A stretch of DNA of 46,672 nucleotides from Paracoccaceae bacterium (lineage in GTDB: Bacteria; Pseudomonadota; Alphaproteobacteria; Rhodobacterales; Rhodobacteraceae). Under the pieces are notes generated by a model, which was given only the letters and a program-made list of their open reading frames with translations, was not told where the DNA came from and ran no database searches. The first letter of the stretch is position 1. The number at the start of each line of letters is the position of its first letter. The stretch is from positions 1-46,672 of the forward strand of contig JALTZY010000194.1 in assembly GCA_027045905.1 (NCBI GenBank), written 5' to 3'. Position numbers and translations under genes: made by a program. Of this stretch, positions 3,662-26,883 are shown piece by piece.

Positions 3662-3711
3662 CCTTTCATCTTTCCGGCAATACTCCGGGGGTGTGGGGGC
3701 CGCGCCCCCAC
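3662..3711 (-). repeat. REP-like element copy A (8-bp GC hairpin GTGGGGGC-GCG-GCCCCCAC plus tail ACCCCCGGAGTATT-GCCG-GAAAGATGAAAGG)
   Basis: Read on the minus strand. The same tail recurs at 14487-14519, 16872-16907 and 23740-23770. This copy lies between the gloB stop and the clpA start. Confidence 0.75.
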
Positions 3712-11949: not shown

Positions 11950-12060
11950 TTTTTCCACGAAAACCGGAGCCCGCCGGCAAAACCCGCTGGGAAGGGTCTT
12001 CAAATCGCGCTAAGCTCGACCTAGATGGATGTTTATACGATTAACATACCGGGAGGACTC

Positions 12061-13137
12061 ATGGCCGATTTCGACGCACAGATACGCGAGAGCAGGGAGC
12101 AGGTGGAGGCCGCACAGGCGAAGATTTCCGAGCTGACCAGCCGCATCGAGGCGGCACGCGAGAAGATGGCGGCGGGCACCGACGTGTCGATCGACATCGA
12201 AAACGCCACGCTCGAGGATGTGCACGCCCATGCCGAGGCCATGAATGCCAATATCGCCGACCTGATCATGGGCCTCGATGAGGTCACCGCCGGATTTTCC
12301 CGCGACTTCGACGAAATGCGCAACAAGACCGGCTGGGAGAAATTCGTCGGCATCTTCGCCCCCGCCAAGGCAGAGAGCATGCGCCAGGAGCGGATGCGCA
12401 CGGCCAGTATCGACGACAAGCTGCAGGACCTGATCGCCAAGTCCGACATCATCGTGAACCTGCTGCAGGGCCAGCTTGACCTACTCAACACCCAGAAGGA
12501 GCGGGTGGAGAAGAACCTGACCGAGACGCTCGACGAGCGCGAGGCGGTGGTGGGCGCGCTCGAGCAGCTTCGCGCCGATATCGAGGCGATGGACCCGAAG
12601 ATCATCGAGCTTGAGAACAGGATCTCGATGGAGCAGGACGCCGCCGAGCGCACCAAGCTCGAGAGCGAACTTGCCGCGCTCAACGCCAAGTATAACGAGA
12701 TGGTGCAGGAAGAGCAGGTGAAGCTGGCGAAAAGCCAGACGCTCGAGCGCTATATCGAGCAGGGCAAGACCTGGATCGACTCCCTGCAGAACCAGGCCGC
12801 GACCCAGATGGTGCTGATCAACAAGCTGCAGACCGACACGAAGCAGCGCGTGGTGCTCTATGACGCGCTGTCCAAGTCGCTCAAGACCGCCCAGCAGCAG
12901 GATGTGGCCCACCGGATCAACGAAATCGGCGTCGAGACCGACAAGGAAGCCCAGGCCGCCATGGCCGCGATCGGGGCGGCCACCAATACCCGCATGGCCG
13001 AGATGATGGAGGCGCATGAAGACAGCATGGTCTTTGCCCGCAAGGTGCTGGAGCAGAAAGCCAGGGCCGACGAGCGCTTCGCGCGGCGGTTTGCCAAGAT
13101 CGTCGAGAAGCACGACAAGAACCTGTATGGCGAATGA
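12061..13137 (+). CDS. 358-aa all-helical coiled-coil protein (TelA-like / PspA-ESCRT-III-like in architecture only), first gene of the orphan cluster
   Basis: ATG 12061 follows a GGGAGG ribosome-binding site. The sequence is Glu/Lys/Gln/Ala-rich and heptad-like throughout, with no TM segment. The codon third positions are typical of the host. Confidence 0.85.
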   Translation: MADFDAQIRESREQVEAAQAKISELTSRIEAAREKMAAGTDVSIDIENATLEDVHAHAEAMNANIADLIMGLDEVTAGFSRDFDEMRNKTGWEKFVGIFAPAKAESMRQERMRTASIDDKLQDLIAKSDIIVNLLQGQLDLLNTQKERVEKNLTETLDEREAVVGALEQLRADIEAMDPKIIELENRISMEQDAAERTKLESELAALNAKYNEMVQEEQVKLAKSQTLERYIEQGKTWIDSLQNQAATQMVLINKLQTDTKQRVVLYDALSKSLKTAQQQDVAHRINEIGVETDKEAQAAMAAIGAATNTRMAEMMEAHEDSMVFARKVLEQKARADERFARRFAKIVEKHDKNLYGE

Positions 13138-13304
13138 AGACCGCTTTCTCCGCCCTGCTGCTCGTGGTGGTCATCGCTCTGGCCAGCTTCAGTTTCGCCC
13201 CGGAAGGCGCGCTCAAGGGGCCGGTGCTGTGGGCCGGCCTGGGGGTGCTGATGCTTGCCGGTGGGTTGGTCTGGTGGCTTGACTGGCGGAGGCGTGATGA
13301 CTGA
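13134..13304 (+). CDS. 56-aa two-TM membrane peptide (below the ORF-track length cutoff)
   Basis: My manual translation is MKTAFSALLLVVVIALASFSFAPEGALKGPVLWAGLGVLMLAGGLVWWLDWRRRDD. Its ATG overlaps the upstream stop (ATGA), and its 3' end overlaps the next ATG by 8 nt. Third codon positions are G/C-rich. Confidence 0.6.
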   Translation: MKTAFSALLLVVVIALASFSFAPEGALKGPVLWAGLGVLMLAGGLVWWLDWRRRDD

Positions 13305-14436
13305 CACCGACTCCCTCACCGCCGATCACCAGAGCCTGACCGACAGCGAGGCGACAAGGCGCTATTTCGCCAAGTTCGAGCGTATCACCCGGCATCTGGC
13401 CCAGGTAGCGGCGCGGATGCAGGGCGAGGGGCAGCTGAGCAGTGCCGAGGTCGAGGTGCTGGCGCGCTATCTGATCGCGCTGGGCTATACGTTCAAGGCG
13501 CTGGACAACAAATATTTCATGGCCGGGCGCGCGCCGGCAGCGGGCGAGCTTACCTTTGACCGGGTGGAGAGCGGCTTTCCGGTGCATGCGGAGCTTTTGC
13601 AGATGGCCGCCGACGCCCAGCAGGCGCGCGCGCACCTGAAGAACATGCCCTCGGGCGAGGATCTGAAGGCCGCCATGGTGCGCGAGATCGTGGGCGAGCT
13701 GAAAGTGCCCACCCGCCTGCAATACGCCTATTCGCAGCGGCTTTACTACGAGGAATTGCTCAAGGGCGATCTGTTCTGGCCGCAGATGCACCCGGATGCC
13801 ATCTGGCAGGGCAATTCCGGCAAGCGCGGGCGCGATCTGAGGCGGCGCTATCTGGTGCATTGGGCGGTCTATGACAGCGTGCGCAACGTGCCCACCGTCT
13901 ACCTGATGGAACTCGAAGATACCGGGCGCATGGCGCTGCCCAGGGACGAGCGCCGCTGGCCCGCGGCGCAGGCGCATCTGCTGGCGCAGAGCACTTCCGG
14001 GCTGAAGCTCGTGACCATTGCCAGCGGGTTCGACCGGGATTTCGACGACCTGCACCCCAAGCGGCTCAAGCGCATCCATCTGGGACCGATGTACAGCCAT
14101 GCCTTTACCAGCCAGCTGGGGCCGTTGCGCGAAGTGCTGGAAGAGGCGAAAAGTCCGCCGGGCGAGGACTGGGCACTGGCCTGGACGGTGGAGGAGCTTG
14201 AGAGCGAGCGGGTGGAGATGGAGAAATCAGGCTGGTTTTCCTCGGTGGAGCGGGAGGTATTCGCGCTGGACCCGTTTTCGGGTCGGGCGACCGACAGCGG
14301 GGCGACGCGCCTTGAGCGCGCGATCATCCTGCCGCAGCGCCCCTATCAGGTGCTGGCGGAGAAGAACCCGCCGGGGTTTCGCGATGTGCGCAAGTTCGTG
14401 GTCAGCCCGGGGGGGCGGGTGCTGAGCTATCGGTAG
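13297..14436 (+). CDS. 379-aa soluble protein of unknown function
   Basis: The ORF has coding-type third-position bias. The start is set at ATG 13297 (MTDTDSLTADHQ), coupled to the small ORF upstream. I recognise no motif in it. Confidence 0.8.
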   Translation: MTDTDSLTADHQSLTDSEATRRYFAKFERITRHLAQVAARMQGEGQLSSAEVEVLARYLIALGYTFKALDNKYFMAGRAPAAGELTFDRVESGFPVHAELLQMAADAQQARAHLKNMPSGEDLKAAMVREIVGELKVPTRLQYAYSQRLYYEELLKGDLFWPQMHPDAIWQGNSGKRGRDLRRRYLVHWAVYDSVRNVPTVYLMELEDTGRMALPRDERRWPAAQAHLLAQSTSGLKLVTIASGFDRDFDDLHPKRLKRIHLGPMYSHAFTSQLGPLREVLEEAKSPPGEDWALAWTVEELESERVEMEKSGWFSSVEREVFALDPFSGRATDSGATRLERAIILPQRPYQVLAEKNPPGFRDVRKFVVSPGGRVLSYR

Positions 14437-14443
14437 GGGGTTC

Positions 14444-14520
14444 GCCGGGCTTGAGCCCGGCGACCGGCCGGGGGCGCTGCCCCCGGACCCCCGGAGTATT
14501 TGCAGAAAGATGAAAAGGGA
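14444..14520 (+). repeat. REP-like element copy B (hairpins GCCGGGC-TTGA-GCCCGGC and CCGGGGG-CGCTG-CCCCCGG plus tail ACCCCCGGAGTATT-TGCA-GAAAGATGAAAAGGG)
   Basis: Read directly. It fills the 90-nt gap between the 379-aa gene and the AAA+ gene. Its purine-rich 3' end (AAGGGA) sits 7 nt before ATG 14527. Confidence 0.8.
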
Positions 14521-14526
14521 AAATCC

Positions 14527-16467
14527 ATGAACATGCCGGCCGATCAGATGGAGCTTCGCGAGGAGGAGATCCGGGCGCATTACGAGGCGGCTTTGGGGTA
14601 TCTGGACGGGTTCGACCATGCACCGCGGATTGCAAAGGCGAAGGAGGCGGCGTCGGTGCGGGAGCGCAGCCCCGGGATCGGCACACGGCGGCGATTTCGC
14701 TCCACCACGCCGGGGCTGGTGGGGCGCTCCACGGCGCGGCCCGAGGGGGTGCGGCTCATCGAGCGGATCGAAGCGGCGGATGGGGGCGATCCGCTGATGA
14801 GCCCGGTGCAGGCGGCGATGCTGCACGGGCTGCGCCGGGCGATTGCCATCTCGCTCGCGGTGGGGGAGGCTTACGGCGAAGCGACCGGGCTGAAGGCGCT
14901 GAAGAAGGACAATCTTGCCGGCGCGCTGCCGCGCAGCCGGGCGGCGGAATTTGCCGAGCTTCTGGCGGCCGAGGCGCTGGTGGTGCTGCATGTCTTTGCC
15001 AATGCCACGGCCTTTCTTCTGGCTTCGCATCGCGGCGAGGTGAGCGTGGAGCTGGGCGCGGTGGAGGAAGTGCTGACCGACAATGCGGCGCTGGCGCTGA
15101 GCGGCGCGCTCTGGGAGCTGGATCAGGACATCGCCGCCTTTGCCGACAGCGAGGCGAAGCTGGTGGCGGTGGTGATCGCCTTTGCCGAGCAGCTGATGGA
15201 GAAGGTGGCGCGGCGCGCCGAGAACGCCCCGCGCCTTGGCCCCTTTACCGGCGCGCGTTACCGGGTGGAGGCGGACGGGCTGACCATTGCCGGGTTTGCG
15301 CCTGCGCGCAGCAGCCGCGGCACCGCCCTGACCATGACGTTCAAGAAGCCCAATGAGGTGGTGGGCAACCATATCGCCAAGTATCAGGCGATGAAGCTCG
15401 CCAAGATGCTGATGGCCTATGATTTCGAGCGCAAGATGAACCCCTTTGCCGAGCTTGGCGGCTTCATCTTCACCTTCATGGGTGACGGGATGCCGGGCAC
15501 CGGCAAGACCACGCTCATACAGATGATGGCCGGGCTGATCAACGATTATTGCCAGGAGGCGGGCTATCCTTTCCGCTATCAGAATCTTTCGACCGAGAGC
15601 ATCGACTCCTACCAGGGCAAGAGCGCGCAGAATGCCAAGGCCTTCATCAACAACGTGCTGGATCCGAACGTGATCGGCTTTGGCACAATCGACGATATCG
15701 ACCAGCTGGCGGGCAAGCGGGGCGACCGGCAGGCTTCGGCCGGGCAGCTTGAGATCACCGCCGTGCTGATGGAGAGCTTTGCCGGGGCCAATACGGTGGT
15801 GCGGGGCAATTGCACCTTCGGCATGTTTTCCAACTACCCCGAGGCGGTGGACGATGCGCTGAGACAGCGGGCCGGCGCCCGGTTCCTGGTGGACGGGCCG
15901 CAGACGCGGGAAGATTACATCGACATCCTCGCCCTGCTTCTGGGCAAGAACCACTCGATCCCGCTCGGAGATCACAAGCTTTATGCGGCGCAGGAGATCA
16001 AGCGCGCCGTGGCCGAGAGCTTCGAGCGCCACAACCGCCCGCGGGAAAGGGCGCTGGAGCGGGTCTATGAGCGGGTGAGCGAGGAACTCGGCAAGCTCGA
16101 TACCATCGCCGAGCTTGGCACTTACCTGAAGGCGATCCAGGAGGCCGATCCGCGCTTTACGGGCCGCGCGATCAAGAACATCACCGATGCGGTCAAGGTG
16201 CGGGCGATGGATTTCGAACTGCCGGACGAATGGATGGAAGAGCCCGAGCTTTTCCTGTTTAAGCCCTATGACGAGAAGAAGGCCATGATAGAAGAGCTGC
16301 GCCGGCCGATCACCGTGGAAATGGTGATCCAGGAGATCAACCGCTATGCCGACAGCGAGTTTCGCTATGCGGAGAAGTCGGACGAGGCGGCGATCAAGGC
16401 GATGGTGCGCGACTTCAGACGCCAGGAAGAGGCCAGGCGGCGGTATCTGGAGGAGAAGGGGGGATGA
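14527..16467 (+). CDS. 646-aa classical-clade AAA+ ATPase with about 300-aa unknown N-terminal domain and about 170-aa helical C-terminal extension
   Basis: Walker A is GMPGTGKTT (15487-15513) and Walker B is VIGFGTIDDID (15670-15702). An SRH-like segment SNYPEAVDDALRQRAGARF lies at about 15828-15890. The start is set at ATG 14527 (MNMPADQ). Confidence 0.9.
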   Translation: MNMPADQMELREEEIRAHYEAALGYLDGFDHAPRIAKAKEAASVRERSPGIGTRRRFRSTTPGLVGRSTARPEGVRLIERIEAADGGDPLMSPVQAAMLHGLRRAIAISLAVGEAYGEATGLKALKKDNLAGALPRSRAAEFAELLAAEALVVLHVFANATAFLLASHRGEVSVELGAVEEVLTDNAALALSGALWELDQDIAAFADSEAKLVAVVIAFAEQLMEKVARRAENAPRLGPFTGARYRVEADGLTIAGFAPARSSRGTALTMTFKKPNEVVGNHIAKYQAMKLAKMLMAYDFERKMNPFAELGGFIFTFMGDGMPGTGKTTLIQMMAGLINDYCQEAGYPFRYQNLSTESIDSYQGKSAQNAKAFINNVLDPNVIGFGTIDDIDQLAGKRGDRQASAGQLEITAVLMESFAGANTVVRGNCTFGMFSNYPEAVDDALRQRAGARFLVDGPQTREDYIDILALLLGKNHSIPLGDHKLYAAQEIKRAVAESFERHNRPRERALERVYERVSEELGKLDTIAELGTYLKAIQEADPRFTGRAIKNITDAVKVRAMDFELPDEWMEEPELFLFKPYDEKKAMIEELRRPITVEMVIQEINRYADSEFRYAEKSDEAAIKAMVRDFRRQEEARRRYLEEKGG

Positions 16468-16781
16468 GTTTTTTCCTCGACATCGCCCTGCCCGTCCTCG
16501 CCCTGATGGGGCTGGCGCTGGGGTTACCCTATCTGTGGGCGCTTTTTGTGCCGGAAGGGATTGGCGGGCTGGTGGTGAGCGGGCTGTTGTCGGTGGCAGT
16601 GATTGCGGCGGCGGTATCGGTTTACCTGCTGATCTGGTATGGTGGGGCGCGCGGCGTGGCTCCGGGCGCGCTCGTGGTATTTCTGGGGCTATGGGTCGCC
16701 AAGACCGCGCTGGCCTGGGCGCCGATGCTGGTGCTGGGGCTGGCGGCGCAGCCGCGGCGCTGGAAGGAGGCGGTGTGGTGA
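16464..16781 (+). CDS. 105-aa three-TM membrane protein
   Basis: Its ATG overlaps the AAA+ stop (ATGA at 16464-16467). It has three hydrophobic stretches of about 22-26 aa. Confidence 0.75.
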   Translation: MSFFLDIALPVLALMGLALGLPYLWALFVPEGIGGLVVSGLLSVAVIAAAVSVYLLIWYGGARGVAPGALVVFLGLWVAKTALAWAPMLVLGLAAQPRRWKEAVW

Positions 16782-16818
16782 GAAAGAGCTTGTGGCGGAC
16801 CCTGTGGATGGTGCGGGA

Positions 16819-16907
16819 GCGAGGGGCCAGCCCCTCGCGCTGCAGGTTGATGCGAGGGGCCAGCCCCTCGCGCTCCCCGGAGTATTTCCCGAAAGATGAA
16901 AGGGGGG
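16819..16907 (+). repeat. REP-like element copy C (tandemly duplicated hairpin GCGAGGGGCCAGCCCCTCGC at 16819-16838 and 16852-16871, plus tail GCTCCCCGGAGTATT-TCCC-GAAAGATGAAAGGGGGG)
   Basis: Read directly. It fills the gap between the 105-aa gene and the 470-aa gene, and its 3' G-run abuts the GTG start at 16909. Confidence 0.8.
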
Positions 16908-16908
16908 C

Positions 16909-18321
16909 GTGGTGAAGCGGCTGATCGAACGCGGGTTGATGTTCGGCAACATGATCCGGGTGGACAGCCCGGCGCTGATCCGCCGCTACAATCGCGCCAT
17001 GAAGGCGCTTTGCGGGCGCGAGACGGCGCTTGGGGAATTTCACATCGACATATCCGGCTACAGCCCCGAAATCGGCGAGGAGCTCGGCGATGAGCTCTAT
17101 CTGAACCCCAATGGCTGCAACCGGCAGTTCATCATTCTCACCACCGAGCAGAAGAAGGCACCTTTGCTCAATGCCAAGTTCTCGACTTCGCGCGGAATAT
17201 TGCGCCGGTTCATCACCGATAACGAGGCGAAGCTGTTTGCGCTCACGGCCAATGACGCGGTGGCCGGCGAGCTTGACAATTCGGTGTTCGAGGTCGAAAG
17301 CCCGGCGCGGCTGTTTGACATCCGTCGCATCGTCGTGCGCGCCGACACCACGCAGGCGCATGTGAAGAATGCCCGCAAGCTGGCCGAGAAGATCGACCGT
17401 TTCATGCAGGAGCCGGATGCCTGGCACGATGATGTGCTGATCGCCGAGATGATCCTGCTGGCGGAAAAGACCGGCGATATCACCCGCAACCCGGTCGATC
17501 TCGACCAGCCTGCCTATGAGCAGGGCAATTTCCACACCTCGCTGTTTGGCGGCATCTACATCTTCCGCGATGTGGAGCATCCGGCGGCGATCGTCATGGG
17601 CGATCGGGGGAAGCTGGGCAAGCTGCCGATTGCCGATACTTTCGGGAGCGATCAGCCCAATGGCATCGCCACCTTTCTTGACCTCAACAATCTGGTCGAG
17701 CCGGTAATCAAGGCGCGCGGGGTCAATGGCGCGCGTATCCTGCGCGAAAAGATGGATTTCATCGTCGTCGATGCCGCCAGCAGCGCCGGGATCGACCTGG
17801 GCGACATGACCCCGCGCGATCTGCACCGCGCCGCCCAGCGGCTGGGGCGTGATCTGCCCGAGGCGTTCAAGGGGCTGGCGGCGCTGGTGCGCTGGGCCGA
17901 AAACGGCGGCAAGTGGCCGCGCATCACCAGCGAGCACCCGGCCTATTTCTACTCCCTGCGCGCGCGCCCCGGCCACCCGGACCGCGACCTGATCAACCAG
18001 CTCCTGGCCGAGCTCAGCCCGCTCGATTTCCGCCAGCTGTTCATCATGCACAAGGAGGCATTCTATGCCGCCTATCGCACATGGGGCGAGCAGAAGCGCG
18101 AATATGCGGCCGAGTTCCTCTACCGCGACTACATGGCCAACAAGGCCGGGGCGCGCGAGGCGCTGTTCGGCGGGCTGGAGGCGGTGCCGGAAGCGCCCGA
18201 TGCGCCGCCTCCGCCGCCCCCGCCTTCGGACGGTGAGAATCTGGTCGATCTGGTCGGCCCCTGGGGCGCGGTCCGGCGCGCGCGCAGGGCATCGCGGAGG
18301 AGGAAGGGACCATGGGACTGA
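16909..18321 (+). CDS. 470-aa soluble protein of unknown function with a Pro-rich then Arg-rich C-terminal tail
   Basis: The ORF starts at GTG 16909 (GTG GTG AAG). It has coding-type codon bias. The tail reads PDAPPPPPPPSDGENLVDLVGPWGAVRRARRASRRRKGPWD. I recognise no catalytic motif. Confidence 0.8.
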   Translation: MVKRLIERGLMFGNMIRVDSPALIRRYNRAMKALCGRETALGEFHIDISGYSPEIGEELGDELYLNPNGCNRQFIILTTEQKKAPLLNAKFSTSRGILRRFITDNEAKLFALTANDAVAGELDNSVFEVESPARLFDIRRIVVRADTTQAHVKNARKLAEKIDRFMQEPDAWHDDVLIAEMILLAEKTGDITRNPVDLDQPAYEQGNFHTSLFGGIYIFRDVEHPAAIVMGDRGKLGKLPIADTFGSDQPNGIATFLDLNNLVEPVIKARGVNGARILREKMDFIVVDAASSAGIDLGDMTPRDLHRAAQRLGRDLPEAFKGLAALVRWAENGGKWPRITSEHPAYFYSLRARPGHPDRDLINQLLAELSPLDFRQLFIMHKEAFYAAYRTWGEQKREYAAEFLYRDYMANKAGAREALFGGLEAVPEAPDAPPPPPPPSDGENLVDLVGPWGAVRRARRASRRRKGPWD

Positions 18322-18587
18322 TCCGCCTGATCGTCTTCGGCTTCATTGCGCTCAGCGTGATCTATTTCGCCATCTCCATCTATTCGCGCTCGGTCAGGCG
18401 CGAGAAGCTCGAAAACCGGTGGGCCGAGGAAAACCCCGGCTCCGATGACATGGAGGCGCGCACCGCCTATGTGGAAAGGGGCCTGAAGGAATACGACAAT
18501 TCCATCCGGCCCAGGCTGATCCTGCTGGTCTATGTCATCCCCACCGTCATCGTCATCGCCACCCTGATCGCCGTCAACTGGAACTGA
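18312..18587 (+). CDS. 91-aa two-TM membrane protein
   Basis: ATG 18312 follows AGGAAGGGA and overlaps the upstream gene by 10 nt. TM segments sit at both ends, with a charged loop between them. Confidence 0.75.
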   Translation: MGLIRLIVFGFIALSVIYFAISIYSRSVRREKLENRWAEENPGSDDMEARTAYVERGLKEYDNSIRPRLILLVYVIPTVIVIATLIAVNWN

Positions 18588-18597
18588 GGAGAGCGCC

Positions 18598-19284
18598 ATG
18601 CGCAAAGTGACCCTGACCCTGAAGGTGCTGGCCCTGGTGCTGGCCGGCGCGCTCCTGCATTACGTCCTGCCCCAGCACGACGTGGCCCGCATCACCTCGA
18701 CCGAGGTGATCCGCATGGATTTCACCCGGTTCAACCGCCTCTTCTTCGCCCAGCCCGACAGCGGCAATCAGGAATTCGCCACCCGTGACATCCGCCTGAT
18801 CAACACGATGCGCAAGAAGACCTGGCTGCTGGGCTTCATCCGCCGCGATGCCGAGGGGGTGATGGTATATCGCAACGAGGATACCGGCTGGATCTGGCCG
18901 CCCTATTTCAAGTTCGACAGTTCCGACCTGCAGGCCGAGGCCAGCGCCAATATCTCGACCCCGGACAAGCCGCAATGGGTGGTGATCACCCATTACGGCT
19001 GGCGCAACCGCTTCTTTACCGTCTATCCCAACGCGGTGGTGATCCGGCCGGTATCCGGGCCCGATGTGACCATCATCCCGTGGTTCAATATCTTCTTTTT
19101 CCTGTTCCTCGCGGCCGCATGGCTGTTTGTCCGGGCCATGTGGCGGCAGTTTCGCGAGCGCACCATCGACCCGGCGCTGGAAAGCGCGGGGGAGACATGG
19201 GAGCAGGTGGACGAACGCGCAAGCCGGGCCCGCGGCCGCTTCACGCGCTGGCTCGCCACCTGGCGGGGCAAGCCGCGCCGGTGA
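18598..19284 (+). CDS. 228-aa membrane-anchored protein, DUF1523-like
   Basis: ATG 18598 follows GAGGAGAG. It has an N-terminal TM, a central domain with WPPYFKFDS, and a second TM (IIPWFNIFFFLFLAAAWLF). The DUF1523 assignment is from memory and unverified. Confidence 0.75.
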   Translation: MRKVTLTLKVLALVLAGALLHYVLPQHDVARITSTEVIRMDFTRFNRLFFAQPDSGNQEFATRDIRLINTMRKKTWLLGFIRRDAEGVMVYRNEDTGWIWPPYFKFDSSDLQAEASANISTPDKPQWVVITHYGWRNRFFTVYPNAVVIRPVSGPDVTIIPWFNIFFFLFLAAAWLFVRAMWRQFRERTIDPALESAGETWEQVDERASRARGRFTRWLATWRGKPRR

Positions 19285-21327: not shown

Positions 21328-21741
21328 TTACCCCTTGCGAATCTCCACGTTCTGCACGACCTTCTCCGGCTCGATACGCTTGAGGTCGATATGCAGAAGG
21401 CCGTTCTCGACCGTCGCCCCCACCACTTCAACCCCATCAGCCAGGACAAAACTCTTCTGAAACTGTCGCCGGGCAATGCCCTGATGCAGAAAAACCCGCG
21501 CCGTGTCATCGCTCGCCTGACGGCCGCGCACCAGGAGCTTGTTTGCCTCGACCGTGATCGACAGATCATCCTGGGAAAATCCCGCCACGGCAAGCGTGAT
21601 GCGATAGGCGCTTTCGCCGGTCTGTTCGATATTGAAGGGCGGATAGCCGTCATTGCCCGACTTGGTGGCCTGCTCGACCATGCGCTCGAGCTGCTCGAAA
21701 CCCAGCAGCATCGGATGGGCGGTAAAAGTCATCTTGGTCAT
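21328..21741 (-). CDS. Hsp20/alpha-crystallin family small heat-shock protein (IbpA-like)
   Basis: The alpha-crystallin core reads YPPFNIEQTGESAYRITLAVAGFSQDDLSITVEANKLLVRG...GLLHIDLKR. The start is set at ATG 21741 (an alternative ATG is at 21732), with a GAAAGGA Shine-Dalgarno sequence. Confidence 0.88.
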   Translation of the reverse strand: MTKMTFTAHPMLLGFEQLERMVEQATKSGNDGYPPFNIEQTGESAYRITLAVAGFSQDDLSITVEANKLLVRGRQASDDTARVFLHQGIARRQFQKSFVLADGVEVVGATVENGLLHIDLKRIEPEKVVQNVEIRKG

Positions 21742-21744
21742 CTG

Positions 21745-21774
21745 GCACGTCCTTTCTCTACAAGCGACCTGTGC
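21745..21774 (-). promoter_or_regulatory. ROSE-like RNA thermometer candidate in the hsp20 leader
   Basis: The minus-strand RNA GCAC-AG-GUC-G-CUU [GUAGAGA] AAG-GAC-GUGC forms an imperfect stem. The stem sequesters the SD AAGGA. It carries the UYGCU signature (UCGCU) and a bulged G opposite the SD. Confidence 0.45.
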
Positions 21775-21804
21775 TGCGGCCCCCAAACGGGCAACCTGCC
21801 CTGC

Positions 21805-21835
21805 AAATATGGGAACCATCCCCGCCCGGTGCAAG
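21805..21835 (-). promoter_or_regulatory. sigma-32 (RpoH)-type promoter candidate for hsp20
   Basis: The minus strand reads CTTGCA, then 15 nt, then TCCCATAT. The consensus is CTTGAA-N13-17-CCCCATNT. It lies about 65-95 nt upstream of the hsp20 ATG. Confidence 0.55.
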
Positions 21836-23739: not shown

Positions 23740-23797
23740 CCCTTTCATCTTTCCATCAATACTCCCGCCGGAGGCACGATTTTTCTGCGAAAAATCG
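23740..23797 (-). repeat. REP-like element copy D: A/T-cored palindrome CGATTTTTC-GCA-GAAAAATCG (23777-23797) in place of the GC hairpin, plus tail GGCGGGAGTATT-GATG-GAAAGATGAAAGGG
   Basis: Read on the minus strand. It lies between the convergent stops of purK (23739) and lpdA (23810). Confidence 0.75.
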
Positions 23798-25329: not shown

Positions 25330-26883
25330 ATCCATCAGCAGGCGGCGCGGATCTTCGAGCGCTTCCTTGACGCGCACGAGGAAGGTCACCGCCCCCTTGC
25401 CGTCCACGATCCGGTGGTCATAGGAGAGCGCCAGATACATCATCGGCCGGATCACAATCTCGCCACCCACCACCACGGGCCGCTCCTGGATCTTGTGCAT
25501 GCCGAGGATCCCCGATTGCGGCGGGTTCAGGATCGGCGAAGACATCAGCGAGCCATAGACCCCGCCATTGGAGATGGTGAAGGAGCCGCCCTGCATCTCG
25601 GCCAGGCTCAGCTTGCCCTCACGCGCGCGCTTGCCCAGTTCGGCGATCTTCTGCTCGATGGCGTGAAACGACATCTGCTCGGCATTGCGGATCACCGGCA
25701 CGACAAGACCGCTGGGCGTGCCCACCGCCACGCCCATATGGACGTAATGCTTGTAAACCACCTCATCGCCGTCGATCTCGGCATTGACCTCGGGCACCTC
25801 GTTCAGCGCATGCACGCAGGCCTTGACGAAGAACGACATGAAGCCGAGCTTGACCCCATGCTTTTTCAGGAACAGGTCCTTGTATTCATTGCGCAGTTCC
25901 ATGATCGCCGACATGTCCGCCTCGTTATAGGTGGTCAGGATCGCAGCCGTATTCTGGGCCTCCTTCAGACGGCGGGCGATGGTCTGGCGCAGGCGGGTCA
26001 TCTTCACCCGCTCCTCGCGCGCCGCATCCTCGGCGGGGACGGTCGGGCGCGGCGCGGCTGGAGCCGCAGGCGCGGCGGGGACGGCAGGCACGCTCGTCGC
26101 AGCGGTCGGAGTTGCGGCGGCAGAGGCGGCGATGGCGGCCTGCACGTCCTCCTTCATCACCCGGCCATCGCGGCCGGTGCCCTGGACCTGATCGCGCGAG
26201 AGCCCGGCTTCGGCCATGGCCTTCTTCGCCGAAGGCGCGTCCTCCACGTCCCGCTTCGGCGCCGAAGGCGCCGCCCCCGAATCCGCCGGGGCGCCGACCC
26301 CAGTCGGCGCAACGCTGCCGGAGGTGGCGATGATCGCCAGCCGCGCGCCCGGGCTCACCACCTCCCCTTCGGGCGCGGCGATCTCGGCCAGAACACCCGC
26401 CTGTGGTGCGGGCACCTCGACCGAAACCTTGTCGGTCTCCAGTTCGCACAGCATTTCGTCGGCAGCCACCGCATCGCCCGGCTGCCTGTACCAGGTCGCG
26501 ACCGTGGCTTCGGTGACGCTCTCGCCCAGGGTCGGCACGACGACCTCCACCGCCCCGCCGCCGGCGGCATCCGGCGCGGTGGGGGCCGGGCTCGGGGCGC
26601 CTGCCGGAGCCTCTGCCACCGGGGCTGGCGGGGCGCCCGCGCCTTCCTCGATCCGTGCCAGAAGCGCACCGACCCCCACGGTCTCGCCTTCCGCGGCAAT
26701 GATTTCCGCCAGCGTCCCGGCCACCGGCGCGGGCACTTCCACCGTCACCTTGTCGGTCTCCAGTTCGCACAGCATTTCATCGGCCGCCACCGCATCGCCG
26801 GGCTTCTTGAACCAGGTCGCGACCGTGGCCTCGGTGACGCTCTCGCCCAAAGCGGGCACATGTACTTCTACTTCCTTGCTCAT
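25324..26883 (-). CDS. sucB: dihydrolipoyllysine-residue succinyltransferase (E2 of 2-oxoglutarate dehydrogenase) with two lipoyl domains
   Basis: Two copies of [13 protein letters not shown]...ELETDKV are followed by Ala/Pro linkers, an E3-binding segment and a catalytic domain with the DHR motif (SYDHRIVDG). The ATG at 26883 overlaps the sucA stop (ATGA). Confidence 0.92.

What the first reader, a model, noticed from the sequence alone, without database searches (positions are those of the whole stretch)
12061..19284. Eight-gene translationally coupled cluster around a classical AAA+ ATPase, a long coiled-coil protein and four small membrane proteins: candidate undescribed membrane-associated system
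All eight ORFs run in the same direction. Their junctions are typical of obligatory co-expression:
- an ATGA overlap at 13134-13137;
- an 8-nt overlap at 13297-13304;
- an ATGA overlap at 16464-16467;
- a 10-nt overlap at 18312-18321;
- a 10-nt gap at 18588-18597.
The only larger gaps are 14437-14526 and 16782-16908, and each is filled by a copy of the same REP-like element. The cluster is therefore split into three modules:
- coiled-coil protein + 56-aa 2-TM peptide + 379-aa orphan protein;
- AAA+ ATPase + 105-aa 3-TM protein;
- 470-aa orphan protein + 91-aa 2-TM protein + 228-aa DUF1523-like 2-TM protein.
Apart from the AAA+ module, I recognise no catalytic or characterised motif. The mix of a coiled-coil scaffold, a classical-clade AAA+ and several tiny membrane anchors suggests membrane remodelling or repair, or extraction of a membrane substrate. 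The classical clade is the one that contains FtsH, Cdc48 and Vps4. This functional idea is inference only. The flanking genes (a divergent DASS transporter and a downstream orphan SBP) are functionally unrelated. There is no integrase, tRNA or IS at the borders, so the cluster does not look like a recently acquired mobile island.
Basis: partly seen in the sequence, partly recalled or inferred. Interest (0 to 1): 0.85.

Follow-up and report, generated by a model that had tools for sequence, protein, structure and literature searches.

The report
Conserved unknown AAA+ four-protein membrane-linked system
The cluster is real, and at its heart is a four-gene module (coiled-coil protein, unknown protein, AAA+ motor, DUF6638 protein) kept in the same order from marine Rhodobacteraceae to Bacteroidota and Patescibacteria, with no described function and no recognisable fold for three of its four proteins.

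Summary
But the unit is not eight equal genes.

- **Core:** four soluble proteins are colinear in about 75 of 80 Rhodobacteraceae loci. They are g1 (coiled coil), g3, g4 (classical-clade AAA+) and g6 (Pfam DUF6638, not an orphan). The same order recurs in Rhizobiaceae, Vibrio, Flavobacteriia, Saprospiraceae and Patescibacteria.
- **Family add-on:** g7 and g8 (DUF1523) are tightly coupled membrane partners specific to Rhodobacteraceae. Other lineages carry unrelated membrane proteins at that position.
- **Variable slots:** g2 and g5 sit in two variable slots. Across genomes these slots hold mostly non-homologous small multi-TM proteins.

Pfam, NCBIfam, PADLOC, PHROGs, PDB sequence and fold searches and the literature gave no function. 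Confident or fair AlphaFold models of g3 and g6 match no solved fold. A conserved RpoH-like promoter motif precedes g1.

Best reading (about 0.35): a stress-induced AAA+ remodelling or unfolding machine working at the inner membrane. That the genes form one undescribed system is much firmer (about 0.9).

The parts
11998..12026 (+). Promoter-like bipartite motif CTTCAAA-N14-ACCTAGAT. It ends 34 nt before the g1 ATG and resembles RpoH (sigma-32 type) promoters.
   Evidence: - Read from the sequence.
- The motif sits at a fixed distance in 64 Rhodobacteraceae loci. 35 of 64 have at most 4 mismatches to CTTGAAA-N12-16-CCCCATAT, against 5.4 +/- 2.0 in shuffles.
- It scores 9.1 bits with a matrix built from 136 R. 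sphaeroides RpoHI-associated promoters (sequences from PMC3441632 Table S2).
- The HSP20 gene in the same window carries CTTGCAC-N14-TCCCATAT.
12061..13137 (+). g1: 358-aa soluble coiled-coil protein. Core component A and the most conserved protein of the cluster.
   Evidence: - ORF.
- 74-83% identical across 74 loci.
- Homologues of 441-459 aa head the cluster in Bacteroidota and Patescibacteria (E 4e-15 and 2e-10; alignment A4).
- The only database hits are coiled-coil noise.
13134..13304 (+). g2: 56-aa 2-TM peptide occupying variable slot A, between g1 and g3.
   Evidence: - ATGA overlap with g1 and 8-nt overlap with g3.
- GC3 0.82.
- No tblastn homologue in 80 loci.
- In other genomes slot A is empty or holds 1-3 unrelated small TM ORFs.
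13297..14436 (+). g3: 379-aa soluble protein of an unnamed family. Core component B.
   Evidence: - 3176 homologues, all named 'hypothetical', none with a Pfam domain.
- Homologues in distant phyla at E 1e-31 and 1.5e-24.
- AF2 model with pLDDT 89.5 and pTM 0.88.
- No PDB fold match (best E 0.31) and none in BFVD.
- Residues invariant across phyla: S92, F94, P95, Y150, W189, D193, P199, D246, P254, R259, G263, P264, S303, Q351.
14470..14519 (+). REP-like dispersed element (GC-rich hairpin plus CCCCGGAGTATTTGCAGAAAGATGAAAAGGG) in the g3-g4 gap.
   Evidence: 4 copies in the window against 0 expected. No Rfam family.
14527..16467 (+). g4: 646-aa AAA+ ATPase. Core component C.
- N-terminal helical domain (about 1-275).
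- One classical-clade AAA module (about 276-560).
- Conserved C-terminal extension.
   Evidence: - PF00004, E 1e-11.
- PDB profile hits to VAT/Cdc48/p97/AFG2/Rpt, E 3e-24 to 4e-16, over profile positions 311-469 only.
- Motifs from alignment A5:
  - Walker A GxPGTGKT;
  - pore loop S-[Y/F]-Q-G;
  - Walker B hhhDD (D389 and D390 nearly invariant, Asp in place of the usual Glu);
  - sensor-1 N436;
  - Arg R448.
- 708 clusters at 50% identity with E<1e-3.
16464..16781 (+). g5: 105-aa 3-4-TM protein occupying variable slot B, between g4 and g6.
   Evidence: - ATGA overlap with g4.
- GC3 0.82.
- Its family is found in 19 further loci, of 75.
- Slot B spans 7-4322 nt elsewhere and holds 0 to about 6 ORFs from at least 9 recurrent families, 8 of them TM proteins.
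16819..16905 (+). Second REP-like copy (two GC hairpins plus CCCCGGAGTATTTCCCGAAAGATGAAAGGGG), directly upstream of the g6 start.
16909..18321 (+). g6: 470-aa DUF6638 protein. Core component D, with a disordered Pro-rich and basic C-terminal tail.
   Evidence: - PF20343, E 5e-218.
- 2974 homologues.
- Follows the AAA+ gene (directly, or after inserted genes) in all 10 distant loci examined.
- AF2 pLDDT 79; residues 414-470 are below 50.
- No PDB fold match (best E 1.2).
- The tail motif GPWG (G450-G453) is invariant within the family.
18312..18587 (+). g7: 91-aa 2-TM protein. Rhodobacteraceae-specific membrane partner.
   Evidence: - Present in 72 of 80 loci.
- The g6-g7 spacing has a median of 2 nt and is at most 15 nt in 68 of 68 loci.
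- Hydropathy.
18598..19284 (+). g8: 228-aa DUF1523 protein. It has an N-terminal TM, an extracytoplasmic domain of about 135 aa, a second TM and a basic cytoplasmic tail. Rhodobacteraceae-specific membrane partner.
   Evidence: - PF07509, E 4e-63.
- Present in 72 of 80 loci.
- The g7-g8 spacing has a median of 10 nt.
- The motif RNEDTGW.WPPYFKFD is conserved, mostly through invariant residues (alignment A6).
- No homology to the large TM proteins at the same position in other phyla (hhalign probability 0.2%).
- The topology is inferred from hydropathy and the positive-inside rule.

Best explanation
**What is there.** The window carries the Rhodobacteraceae form of an ancient, undescribed four-protein cytoplasmic module. 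The genes always come in the order:
1. coiled-coil protein (g1);
2. unnamed alpha/beta protein (g3);
3. classical-clade AAA+ ATPase (g4);
4. DUF6638 protein (g6).

In most lineages the module is followed by lineage-specific inner-membrane proteins, here g7 and the DUF1523 protein g8. In Alphaproteobacteria it is interrupted by two slots that collect fast-turnover small genes, mostly multi-TM proteins (here g2 and g5).

**Most likely mechanism (inferred, not shown).**
- g4 forms a hexamer. It uses its conserved aromatic pore loop and arginine finger to thread or pull apart a protein substrate at the cytoplasmic face of the inner membrane.
- g1 acts as an elongated scaffold, or is itself the polymer that gets disassembled.
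- g3 and g6 act as adaptors or regulators.
- The cytoplasmic loop of g7 and the tail of g8 dock the machine to the membrane or report on the envelope.
- The slot-encoded small membrane proteins are clients or alternative anchors.
- In Rhodobacteraceae the operon is probably switched on by an RpoH-type stress sigma factor.

**Shown:** gene content, colinearity across phyla, the AAA+ motifs, the lack of known folds, the TM enrichment and the conserved promoter-like motif.
**Inferred:** the physical complex, the substrate, the membrane location of the core and the identity of the sigma factor.
For: **One functional unit.**
- Colinear in 72-77 of 80 Rhodobacteraceae loci while the flanks differ.
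- The same A-B-AAA-DUF6638 order occurs in Spongiivirga, Saprospiraceae, two Patescibacteria and three further metagenomic genomes, and in S. meliloti and V. vulnificus.
- Homology is confirmed by blastp and HMM.
- g1 and g4 are 79% and 76% identical on average across genera, which points to strong purifying selection.

**Threading AAA+.**
- Profile hits to VAT/Cdc48/p97/Rpt.
- Walker A, the pore loop [Y/F]QG, sensor 1 and the Arg finger are conserved down to 24% identity.

**Membrane link.**
- g6-g7-g8 are tightly coupled in all or nearly all loci.
- In 5 of 8 Bacteroidota/Patescibacteria-type loci, a small TM protein and then a TM protein of 530-700 aa (no Pfam match) follow DUF6638. In two others only a small TM protein follows, and in one nothing does.
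- DUF2333 follows it in S. meliloti.
- Slot ORFs with at least 2 TM segments: 13 of 15 in slot A and 40 of 51 in slot B, against 27 of 325 among flanking genes (Fisher 1e-11 and 5e-26).
- 8 of the 9 recurrent slot-B families are TM proteins.

**Stress control.**
- A bipartite motif conserved at a fixed distance.
- A score inside the range of experimentally defined RpoH promoters.
- The same architecture in front of the window's HSP20 gene.
Against: - No direct evidence exists for any protein-protein contact, for ATPase activity, or for membrane localisation of the four core proteins. All four lack TM segments.
- The Vibrio version has no membrane partner at all. One metagenomic locus also has none.
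- The g1 family shows no profile similarity to PspA, Snf7 or any other known membrane-remodelling polymer.
- The catalytic Walker B Glu is Asp throughout the family, which might mean slow, switch-like ATP turnover rather than processive threading.
- The RpoH reading is weak at the -35 box. The critical TTG is ATG or TTC in many loci. Only 23% of loci reach 10 bits, against 4-7% of most controls and 19% of windows upstream of g8.
- The slots could simply be permissive insertion sites. An IS and a small endonuclease gene sit in slot B in S. meliloti.
- The coding-likeness filter used slightly favours hydrophobic proteins.
Confidence: 0.35

Rival explanations
1. A conflict system (anti-phage defence or toxin-like). 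The conserved AAA+ core senses an invader or a stress. The interchangeable small membrane proteins in the slots, and the downstream TM proteins, are effectors that permeabilise the membrane.
For: - The distribution is patchy and spans phyla: Alpha- and Gammaproteobacteria, Bacteroidota and Patescibacteria.
- The core is present on about 0.9-Mb Vibrio replicons filed as plasmids.
- Hypervariable small-gene slots lie inside a conserved frame.
- An IS and a selfish-looking endonuclease gene sit in slot B.
- Swapping of TM effectors is a known habit of defence systems (general knowledge).
Against: - No PADLOC model matches beyond the generic AAA domain.
- There are no PHROG or viral-contig relatives.
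- No nuclease, protease, TIR or other known effector domain is present.
- Within Rhodobacteraceae the cluster looks vertically inherited. It occurs in many genera and in several species of one genus, at 74-83% identity for g1 and g4. That is unlike arms-race genes.
- The slots are empty in many loci while the core is retained.
Confidence: 0.17
2. A purely cytoplasmic proteostasis or assembly machine. The four soluble proteins act on soluble or nucleoid-associated substrates, for example as a disaggregase-like or complex-disassembly chaperone. The neighbouring membrane genes are lineage-specific passengers.
For: - All four core proteins lack TM segments.
- The Vibrio locus is the bare core.
- The membrane partners are non-homologous between lineages.
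- The RpoH-like promoter fits a heat-shock chaperone.
- The nearest AAA relatives (Cdc48/VAT/Rpt) are general unfoldases.
Against: - The DUF6638-g7-g8 spacing of about 2 and 10 nt is kept in 68 of 68 and 95% of loci.
- Membrane proteins recur immediately after DUF6638 in unrelated phyla.
- The strong TM enrichment in both slots is hard to explain by chance adjacency.
Confidence: 0.18
3. An ATP-dependent degradation machine in which g3 or g6 is a peptidase of a new fold, fed by the g4 unfoldase.
For: - Classical-clade AAA+ unfoldases commonly pair with a peptidase (FtsH, proteasome; general knowledge).
- g3 keeps a small set of invariant polar residues across phyla: S92 in the SGFP motif, D193, D246 and S303, plus a near-invariant His before P254.
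- Stress-type promoter.
Against: - No peptidase family or fold was matched by Pfam, NCBIfam, PDB sequence or Foldseek.
- The His of the HPK motif is replaced in two of 15 sequences.
- There is no evidence for a self-compartmentalising oligomer.
Confidence: 0.08
4. Chance or merely local juxtaposition of unrelated genes.
For: The g3-g4 and g5-g6 gaps carry dispersed repeats. No sigma-70 consensus promoter or terminator structure defines an operon.
Against: The order and strand of the four core genes are conserved in about 75 Rhodobacteraceae loci and in 10 loci from other classes and phyla, at 20-30% protein identity.
Confidence: 0.02

Closest known systems
Vps4 / ESCRT-III (archaeal CdvABC; bacterial PspA/Vipp1 as the ESCRT-III relatives)
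   Same: - A single-module classical-clade AAA+ with a helical N-terminal domain.
- It is encoded next to an elongated all-helical protein and next to membrane-associated partners.
- Plausible logic: the ATPase disassembles a helical polymer at a membrane.
   Different: - The g1 family has no profile similarity to PspA or Snf7.
- No MIT domain was detected in g4.
- Two extra conserved globular proteins (g3, DUF6638) have no counterpart.
- Walker B is DD rather than DE.
Cdc48/p97/VAT and proteasomal Rpt/PAN unfoldases with adaptors
   Same: - These are the closest AAA domains by sequence (E 3e-24 to 4e-16).
- The pore loop, Arg finger and lid motif are conserved.
- Dedicated cofactor proteins are expected.
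   Different: - g4 has one AAA module, not a D1-D2 tandem.
- The N-domain is an unrelated helical region with no PDB match.
- No 20S-type peptidase partner is present.
- The partners are three unknown families.
Psp/Lia envelope-stress modules (PspA with PspBC, LiaH with LiaI)
   Same: - A coiled-coil cytoplasmic protein is encoded with very small TM proteins.
- A stress-type promoter is predicted.
   Different: - No PspA_IM30 domain is present.
- The ATPase here is an unfoldase-type classical AAA, not a bEBP like PspF.
- The predicted promoter is RpoH-like, not sigma-54.
AAA+-containing anti-phage systems (CBASS TRIP13/HORMA, Gao_Iet IetA/IetS)
   Same: - An AAA+ ATPase plus partners of unknown fold.
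- Variable membrane-protein genes nearby.
- A patchy inter-phylum spread.
   Different: - Only the generic AAA domain matches (TRIP13 E 7e-7, IetA E 6e-3).
- No HORMA, protease or cyclase partner is present.
- The cluster is strongly conserved and apparently vertical within Rhodobacteraceae.

Membership tests
Classical-clade AAA+ ATPases (PF00004) | Walker A P-loop GxxGxGKT | tested here: met
   GMPGTGKT. G324, G326 and K327 are invariant in 28 sequences down to 24% identity. PF00004 E 1e-11.
Classical-clade AAA+ ATPases (PF00004) | Walker B hhhhDE with a catalytic Glu | tested here: inconclusive
   The motif is hhhDD. D389 and D390 are nearly invariant, with Asp replacing the usual Glu throughout the family. 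Whether Asp supports hydrolysis cannot be told from sequence.
Classical-clade AAA+ ATPases (PF00004) | Pore-loop-1 aromatic-x-Gly, and a second region of homology with sensor-1 Asn and an Arg finger | tested here: met
   - S-[Y/F]-Q-G is aligned with the KYxG position.
- N436 is invariant and R448 nearly invariant.
- There is an FtsH-like lid motif RFTGRAIKNI.
- The best PDB relatives are VAT/Cdc48/p97/AFG2/Rpt.
ESCRT-III / PspA / Vipp1 superfamily (for g1) | Detectable Snf7 or PspA_IM30 domain | tested here: not met
   - No such Pfam hit appears among the families listed for 19 g1 homologues at E<=1 (25 of 35 families shown).
- hhalign of the g1 profile against E. coli PspA and yeast Snf7 gives probabilities of 0.9% and 0.4%.
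Vps4-type ATPase (for g4) | N-terminal MIT domain that binds MIM motifs of the polymer | tested here: not met
   Pfam and NCBIfam find nothing in residues 1-275. The PDB profile search matches only positions 311-469. No structural model of the N-domain was made.
Known anti-phage defence systems (PADLOC-DB v2) | Significant match of the component proteins to a system's models, in the system's gene arrangement | tested here: not met
   - Only generic AAA hits appear (TRIP13 7e-7, IetA 6e-3).
- There is a coiled-coil hit to LmuB (2e-5).
- g2, g3, g5, g6 and g8 have no hit.
- g7 has only a marginal one (PDC-S02, E 0.03).
Pfam DUF6638 (g6) and DUF1523 (g8) | Full-length match above the gathering score | tested here: met
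   PF20343 scores 724.7 bits (cut-off 27) over 1-439 of 439 profile positions. PF07509 scores 212.3 bits (cut-off 23) over 1-176 of 176. Both are families of unknown function.
RpoH (sigma-32 type) regulon | -35 TTG and -10 CC(C/T)ATNT-like boxes at the RpoH spacing, upstream of the first gene | tested here: inconclusive
   - The window has CTTCAAA-N14-ACCTAGAT.
- It scores 9.1 bits with a matrix from 136 R. sphaeroides RpoHI-associated promoters (training quartiles 8.9 and 13.5).
- 23% of loci reach 10 bits, against 4-7% of most controls and 19% of windows upstream of g8.
- The -10 half is well conserved, but TTG is often ATG or TTC.
- No expression data were available.

The most novel reading that the evidence does not exclude
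A previously unrecognised, phylum-spanning bacterial machine built from an AAA+ unfoldase and three protein families with new folds. It extracts, inserts or remodels small inner-membrane proteins, or a coiled-coil scaffold on the membrane, during heat or envelope stress. This would be a new class of membrane proteostasis or remodelling system, alongside FtsH, Psp and ESCRT.
Probability: 0.3. Interest if true: 0.88.

Novelty: categorically new. Interest (0 to 1): 0.72.

Why it matters
- **Abundance.** Rhodobacteraceae are among the most abundant marine heterotrophs. They appear to keep this cluster under strong purifying selection, yet nothing is known about it.
- **Breadth.** The same four-gene core in genome-reduced Patescibacteria, in Bacteroidota, in rhizobia and in Vibrio points to a basic and portable cellular function.
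- **New protein space.** Three of the four core proteins have no sequence or structural relative of known function. Two of them have confident or fair models but no PDB match.
- **Tractability.** The system can be studied in S. meliloti, Ruegeria, Dinoroseobacter and Vibrio, all of which have genetics.
- **Concrete experiments.** A predicted stress promoter, plus a clear set of conserved motifs to mutate, gives a direct starting point.

Tried and rejected
**Database and profile searches**
- Pfam, NCBIfam, PADLOC and PHROGs on all eight proteins. Only AAA, DUF6638 and DUF1523 matched.
- EAD9 (effector-associated domain) hits on g1 orthologues. Rejected: below threshold and at shifting positions, so coiled-coil noise.
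- PDB sequence and profile searches for g1, g3 and g6. Nothing beyond coiled-coil noise.
- hhalign of g1 against PspA and Snf7, of g3 against g6, and of DUF1523 against the large TM proteins of other phyla. No homology.

**Fold searches**
- Foldseek of the g3 and g6 models against the PDB. No hit with E<0.001.
- Among the weak g3 hits were pore-forming proteins and T-fold enzymes, at E 0.3-2.8. Judged meaningless.
- Foldseek of g3 against BFVD. A run of ssRNA-phage maturation proteins at E 1.7e-3 to 0.4 with TM-scores of about 0.1. Not significant.

**Other tests**
- A hydrophobic helix in the g4 N-domain as a possible TM anchor. Rejected: not consistently hydrophobic across the family.
- Phage and viral-contig searches. 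None found.
- Profile-based locus scans of metagenome and viral collections failed, because the alignments were too divergent.

**Literature**
- No paper mentions DUF6638. DUF1523 and DUF2333 get only passing mentions.
- The S. meliloti locus tags gave one ChvI-binding fragment in SMc02733, whose mapping is unverified.
- The R. sphaeroides RpoH regulon tables list two AAA genes (RSP_0152, RSP_1743). Neither fits this cluster's architecture.

**Promoter and RNA scans**
- A CtrA box upstream of g1. Only 1 of 64 loci has a full site.
- The sigma-70 scan found no consensus promoter.
- Rfam found nothing.

Full report
**1. Observation**

The eight + strand ORFs are present exactly as listed.
- g1: 12061-13137
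- g2: 13134-13304
- g3: 13297-14436
- g4: 14527-16467
- g5: 16464-16781
- g6: 16909-18321 (GTG start)
- g7: 18312-18587
- g8: 18598-19284

The junctions are 4-, 8-, 4- and 10-nt overlaps and a 10-nt gap.

All eight have gene-like codon-position GC (GC3 0.82-0.88 against GC2 0.34-0.49), including the tiny g2 and g5. Hydropathy gives 2, 3-4, 2 and 2 TM segments for g2, g5, g7 and g8, and none for g1, g3 and g6. Two borderline hydrophobic stretches in the g4 N-domain are addressed in section 5.

The two larger gaps each hold a copy of a dispersed element: a GC-rich hairpin followed by CCCCGGAGTATTTnCnGAAAGATGAAArGGG. The window has four copies against zero expected. No Rfam family matches.

**2. 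What the proteins are**

- **g4** carries one AAA module (PF00004, E 1e-11). A profile of 28 family members hits VAT, Cdc48/p97, AFG2 and proteasomal Rpt subunits at E 3e-24 to 4e-16. The match covers only profile positions 311-469.
- The g4 alignment shows Walker A GxPGTGKT, a pore loop S-[Y/F]-Q-G, sensor-1 Asn, an Arg finger and an FtsH-like lid motif. It also shows a nearly invariant Walker B "DD" instead of "DE".
- The g4 N-terminal 275 residues and the C-terminal extension match nothing.
- **g6** is Pfam DUF6638 (E 5e-218) and **g8** is DUF1523 (E 4e-63).
- **g1** gives only coiled-coil noise: SMC, LmuB, SbcC and designed coiled coils.
- **g3** has 3176 homologues, all "hypothetical" and without a Pfam domain.
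- PADLOC and PHROGs add nothing.

**3. Structures**

- AlphaFold2 with 62- and 61-sequence alignments gave a confident g3 model (pLDDT 89.5, pTM 0.88) and a fair g6 model (pLDDT 79, disordered tail 414-470).
- Foldseek against 350,542 PDB chains found no match with E<0.001 for either. The best were E 0.31 and 1.2, with TM-scores of about 0.1.
- g3 against viral predicted structures gave only weak hits to ssRNA-phage maturation proteins, with TM-scores of about 0.1.
- HMM searches of the PDB were empty.
- Within the limits of these libraries (no AFDB, no HHpred), g3 and g6 have no recognisable fold.

**4. Conservation within Rhodobacteraceae**

- A scan of one genome per GTDB species with g4 found at least 594 relatives. 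The best 80 are all Rhodobacteraceae/Paracoccaceae at 73-96% identity.
- tblastn of all eight proteins shows g1, g3, g4, g6, g7 and g8 colinear on one strand in 72-77 of 80 loci. Most of the exceptions are short or truncated contigs.
- The DASS-type transporter and the SBP are not conserved neighbours, and no other flanking gene is shared by more than 36 loci.
- Mean identity to the window is 79% for g1, 76% for g4, 64% for g3, 61% for g6, 52% for g8 and 47% for g7.
- The g6-g7 spacing has a median of 2 nt (at most 15 nt in 68 of 68 loci). The g7-g8 spacing has a median of 10 nt (95% at most 15 nt). The g3-g4 spacing has a median of 71 nt.

**5. Two variable slots**

- g2 is never detected by tblastn, and g5 in only 7 of 80 loci.
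- The g1-g3 interval ranges from -4 to 1080 nt. It is empty in about a third to half of the loci (25 of 74 have a gap under 150 nt). Otherwise it holds one to three unrelated small 2-TM ORFs.
- The g4-g6 interval ranges from 7 to 4322 nt and holds zero to about six ORFs. Typical contents are one to three proteins of about 100-115 aa with 3 TM segments, starting at the AAA stop codon, plus proteins of 170-390 aa.
- Clustering gives at least nine recurrent families, eight of them TM proteins, plus 56 singletons.
- The g5 family is the largest. Even so, jackhmmer finds it in only 19 further loci, of 75 with both flanking genes.
- Among coding-like ORFs, at least 2 TM segments occur in 13 of 15 (slot A) and 40 of 51 (slot B), against 27 of 325 flanking genes of similar size (Fisher 1e-11 and 5e-26). 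The caveat is that the GC3-GC2 filter mildly favours hydrophobic proteins.
- A hydrophobic helix in the g4 N-domain is not consistently TM-like, so the core is soluble.

**6. Conservation beyond the family**

- A full-database HMMER search with g4 found 708 clusters at 50% identity (195 with E<1e-30). Full-length relatives of about 620-675 aa go down to 24% identity.
- Source names place them in Zooshikella, Flavobacteriales, Bacteroidia, Saprospiraceae, Spongiivirga and Patescibacteria/Sungbacteria.
- Eight such contigs all show the same layout:
  1. a coiled-coil protein of 441-459 aa;
  2. zero or one small variable ORF;
  3. a g3-like protein of 352-397 aa;
  4. an AAA of about 650 aa;
  5. 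a DUF6638 protein of 406-423 aa.
- After DUF6638, five of the eight have a small TM protein and then a TM protein of 530-700 aa with no Pfam match. Two have only a small TM protein, and one has neither.
- blastp and HMM searches confirm homology: g1 E 4e-15 and 2e-10, g3 1e-31 and 1.5e-24, g6 1e-56 and 6e-45.
- tblastn against PLSDB found the module at 55-57% identity in chromosome-sized Sinorhizobium and Shinella replicons and a 1.3-Mb Rhizobium replicon. It found it at 42% identity in Vibrio replicons of about 0.9 Mb.
- In S. meliloti the order is tdk, g1-like, g3-like, AAA, a small endonuclease-domain gene plus ISRm16, a DUF6638-like protein, then DUF2333.
- In V. vulnificus the bare four-gene core is followed by mfd.
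- DUF1523 is not homologous to the large TM proteins of other phyla.
- The invariant unit is therefore four soluble proteins. Membrane partners are usual but lineage-specific.

**7. Regulation**

- No sigma-70 consensus was found.
- Aligning the 160 nt upstream of g1 in 64 loci revealed a bipartite motif at a fixed distance. The -10 block ends about 29-38 nt before the ATG. The motif is [C/G][T/A]T[G/C][T/A]AA, then N13-14, then CCCCATAT.
- 35 of 64 loci have at most 4 mismatches to CTTGAAA-N12-16-CCCCATAT, against 5.4 +/- 2.0 in shuffles. Shared ancestry inflates this contrast somewhat.
- The window's version is CTTCAAA-N14-ACCTAGAT at 11998-12026. This also argues for the 12061 start, since the upstream ATG at 12025 lies inside the motif.
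- I built a matrix from 136 R. sphaeroides RpoHI-associated promoters (PMC3441632, Table S2). The window site scores 9.1 bits (training quartiles 8.9 and 13.5).
- 23% of loci reach 10 bits. Shuffles, random windows and the regions upstream of g3, g4 and g6 give 1-7%; windows upstream of g8 give 19%.
- The HSP20 gene in the same window carries a textbook CTTGCAC-N14-TCCCATAT.
- The -35 TTG, shown to be critical in that paper, is often ATG or TTC here. RpoH control is therefore a moderate inference.
- Vibrio and Patescibacteria loci have sigma-70-like promoters instead.

**8. Interpretation**

The joint-function claim is strong (about 0.9). Order and strand are preserved at 20-30% protein identity across phyla.

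The mechanism is inferred. A classical-clade AAA+ with intact pore loops is expected to thread or disassemble proteins (established knowledge of the clade). Its most conserved partner is an elongated coiled coil. Membrane proteins are persistently encoded after and within the cluster. A stress-type promoter is likely.

I therefore favour a stress-induced remodelling or unfolding machine acting at the inner membrane (about 0.35). The rivals are:
- a conflict system with swappable TM effectors (about 0.17);
- a purely cytoplasmic chaperone or disassembly machine (about 0.18);
- a degradation machine with a new-fold peptidase (about 0.08).

Points against my reading:
- the Vibrio locus is a bare core;
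- Walker B is DD.

**9. Known systems and novelty**

The closest analogies are Vps4/ESCRT-III, Cdc48/VAT with adaptors, Psp/Lia modules and AAA+-containing defence systems. For each, a defining feature was tested and not met: the Snf7/PspA domain, the MIT domain, the tandem AAA, or the PADLOC models.

Full-text search found no paper mentioning DUF6638 and only passing mentions of DUF1523 and DUF2333. The only possible experimental trace is a ChvI-bound fragment inside SMc02733 (PMC3687685). By gene order this may be the S. meliloti AAA gene, but I could not verify the mapping.

I rate the system as categorically new. The caveat is that AFDB-scale fold search and HHpred were not available.

Noticed in passing
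window 3664-3686 (-), 14493-14515 (+), 16879-16901 (+), 23743-23765 (-): A dispersed REP-like element: a GC-rich hairpin followed by CCCCGGAGTATTnnCnGAAAGATGAAAGG. There are four copies against zero expected by chance, and no Rfam family matches. Both in-cluster copies end a few bases before a start codon (g4, g6), so the element may supply or affect the ribosome-binding region.
   Followed up: partly
window 21807-21835 (-), upstream of the HSP20 gene at 21328-21834 (-): A canonical RpoH-type promoter, CTTGCAC-N14-TCCCATAT, in front of a small heat-shock protein gene. It is one of only three sites in the whole window with at most 3 mismatches to the consensus. I used it as an internal control for the g1 motif.
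   Followed up: partly
Rhodobacteraceae loci such as L011, L012, L016, L018, L024, L034 and L035, about 45 nt upstream of the -35-like box of g1: A second conserved box, TTTGCAACACT, is present in about 12-14 of 64 loci. It is absent from the window. It could be a regulator binding site.
   Followed up: no
window 26336-26859: A 203-nt direct repeat (78% identity, 321-nt spacing). It is explained by two tandem lipoyl domains in a sucB-like E2 gene on the - strand. Ordinary.
   Followed up: yes
L087 9986-11731 (S. meliloti Ak57, record CP090106.1): A small endonuclease-domain gene and an ISRm16 transposase sit exactly in the AAA-DUF6638 interval (slot B). This interval is therefore a recurrent insertion point outside Rhodobacteraceae too. 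The 3.7-Mb record is labelled pSymB but is chromosome-sized.
   Followed up: partly
L088 5473-11021 (V. vulnificus FORC_036, NZ_CP015514.1): Vibrio replicons of about 0.9 Mb, filed as plasmids, carry the bare four-gene core. It has a sigma-70-like promoter (TTGACA-N16-TAATAT) and sits directly upstream of an mfd copy, with no membrane partner.
   Followed up: partly
S. meliloti 1021 SMc02733 (literature, PMC3687685): A ChvI (envelope-stress response regulator) binding fragment was mapped inside SMc02733. Counting genes from choXWV, this could be the AAA+ orthologue, but the mapping was not verified.
   Followed up: no
window 18130-18321 (g6 residues about 414-470): The Rhodobacteraceae DUF6638 proteins end in a disordered Pro-rich stretch followed by a conserved VGPWGAVRR basic motif (GPWG invariant in the 61-sequence alignment). 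The homologues of 406-429 aa in other lineages lack it. It may be a docking peptide for g7/g8 or the AAA+.
   Followed up: no
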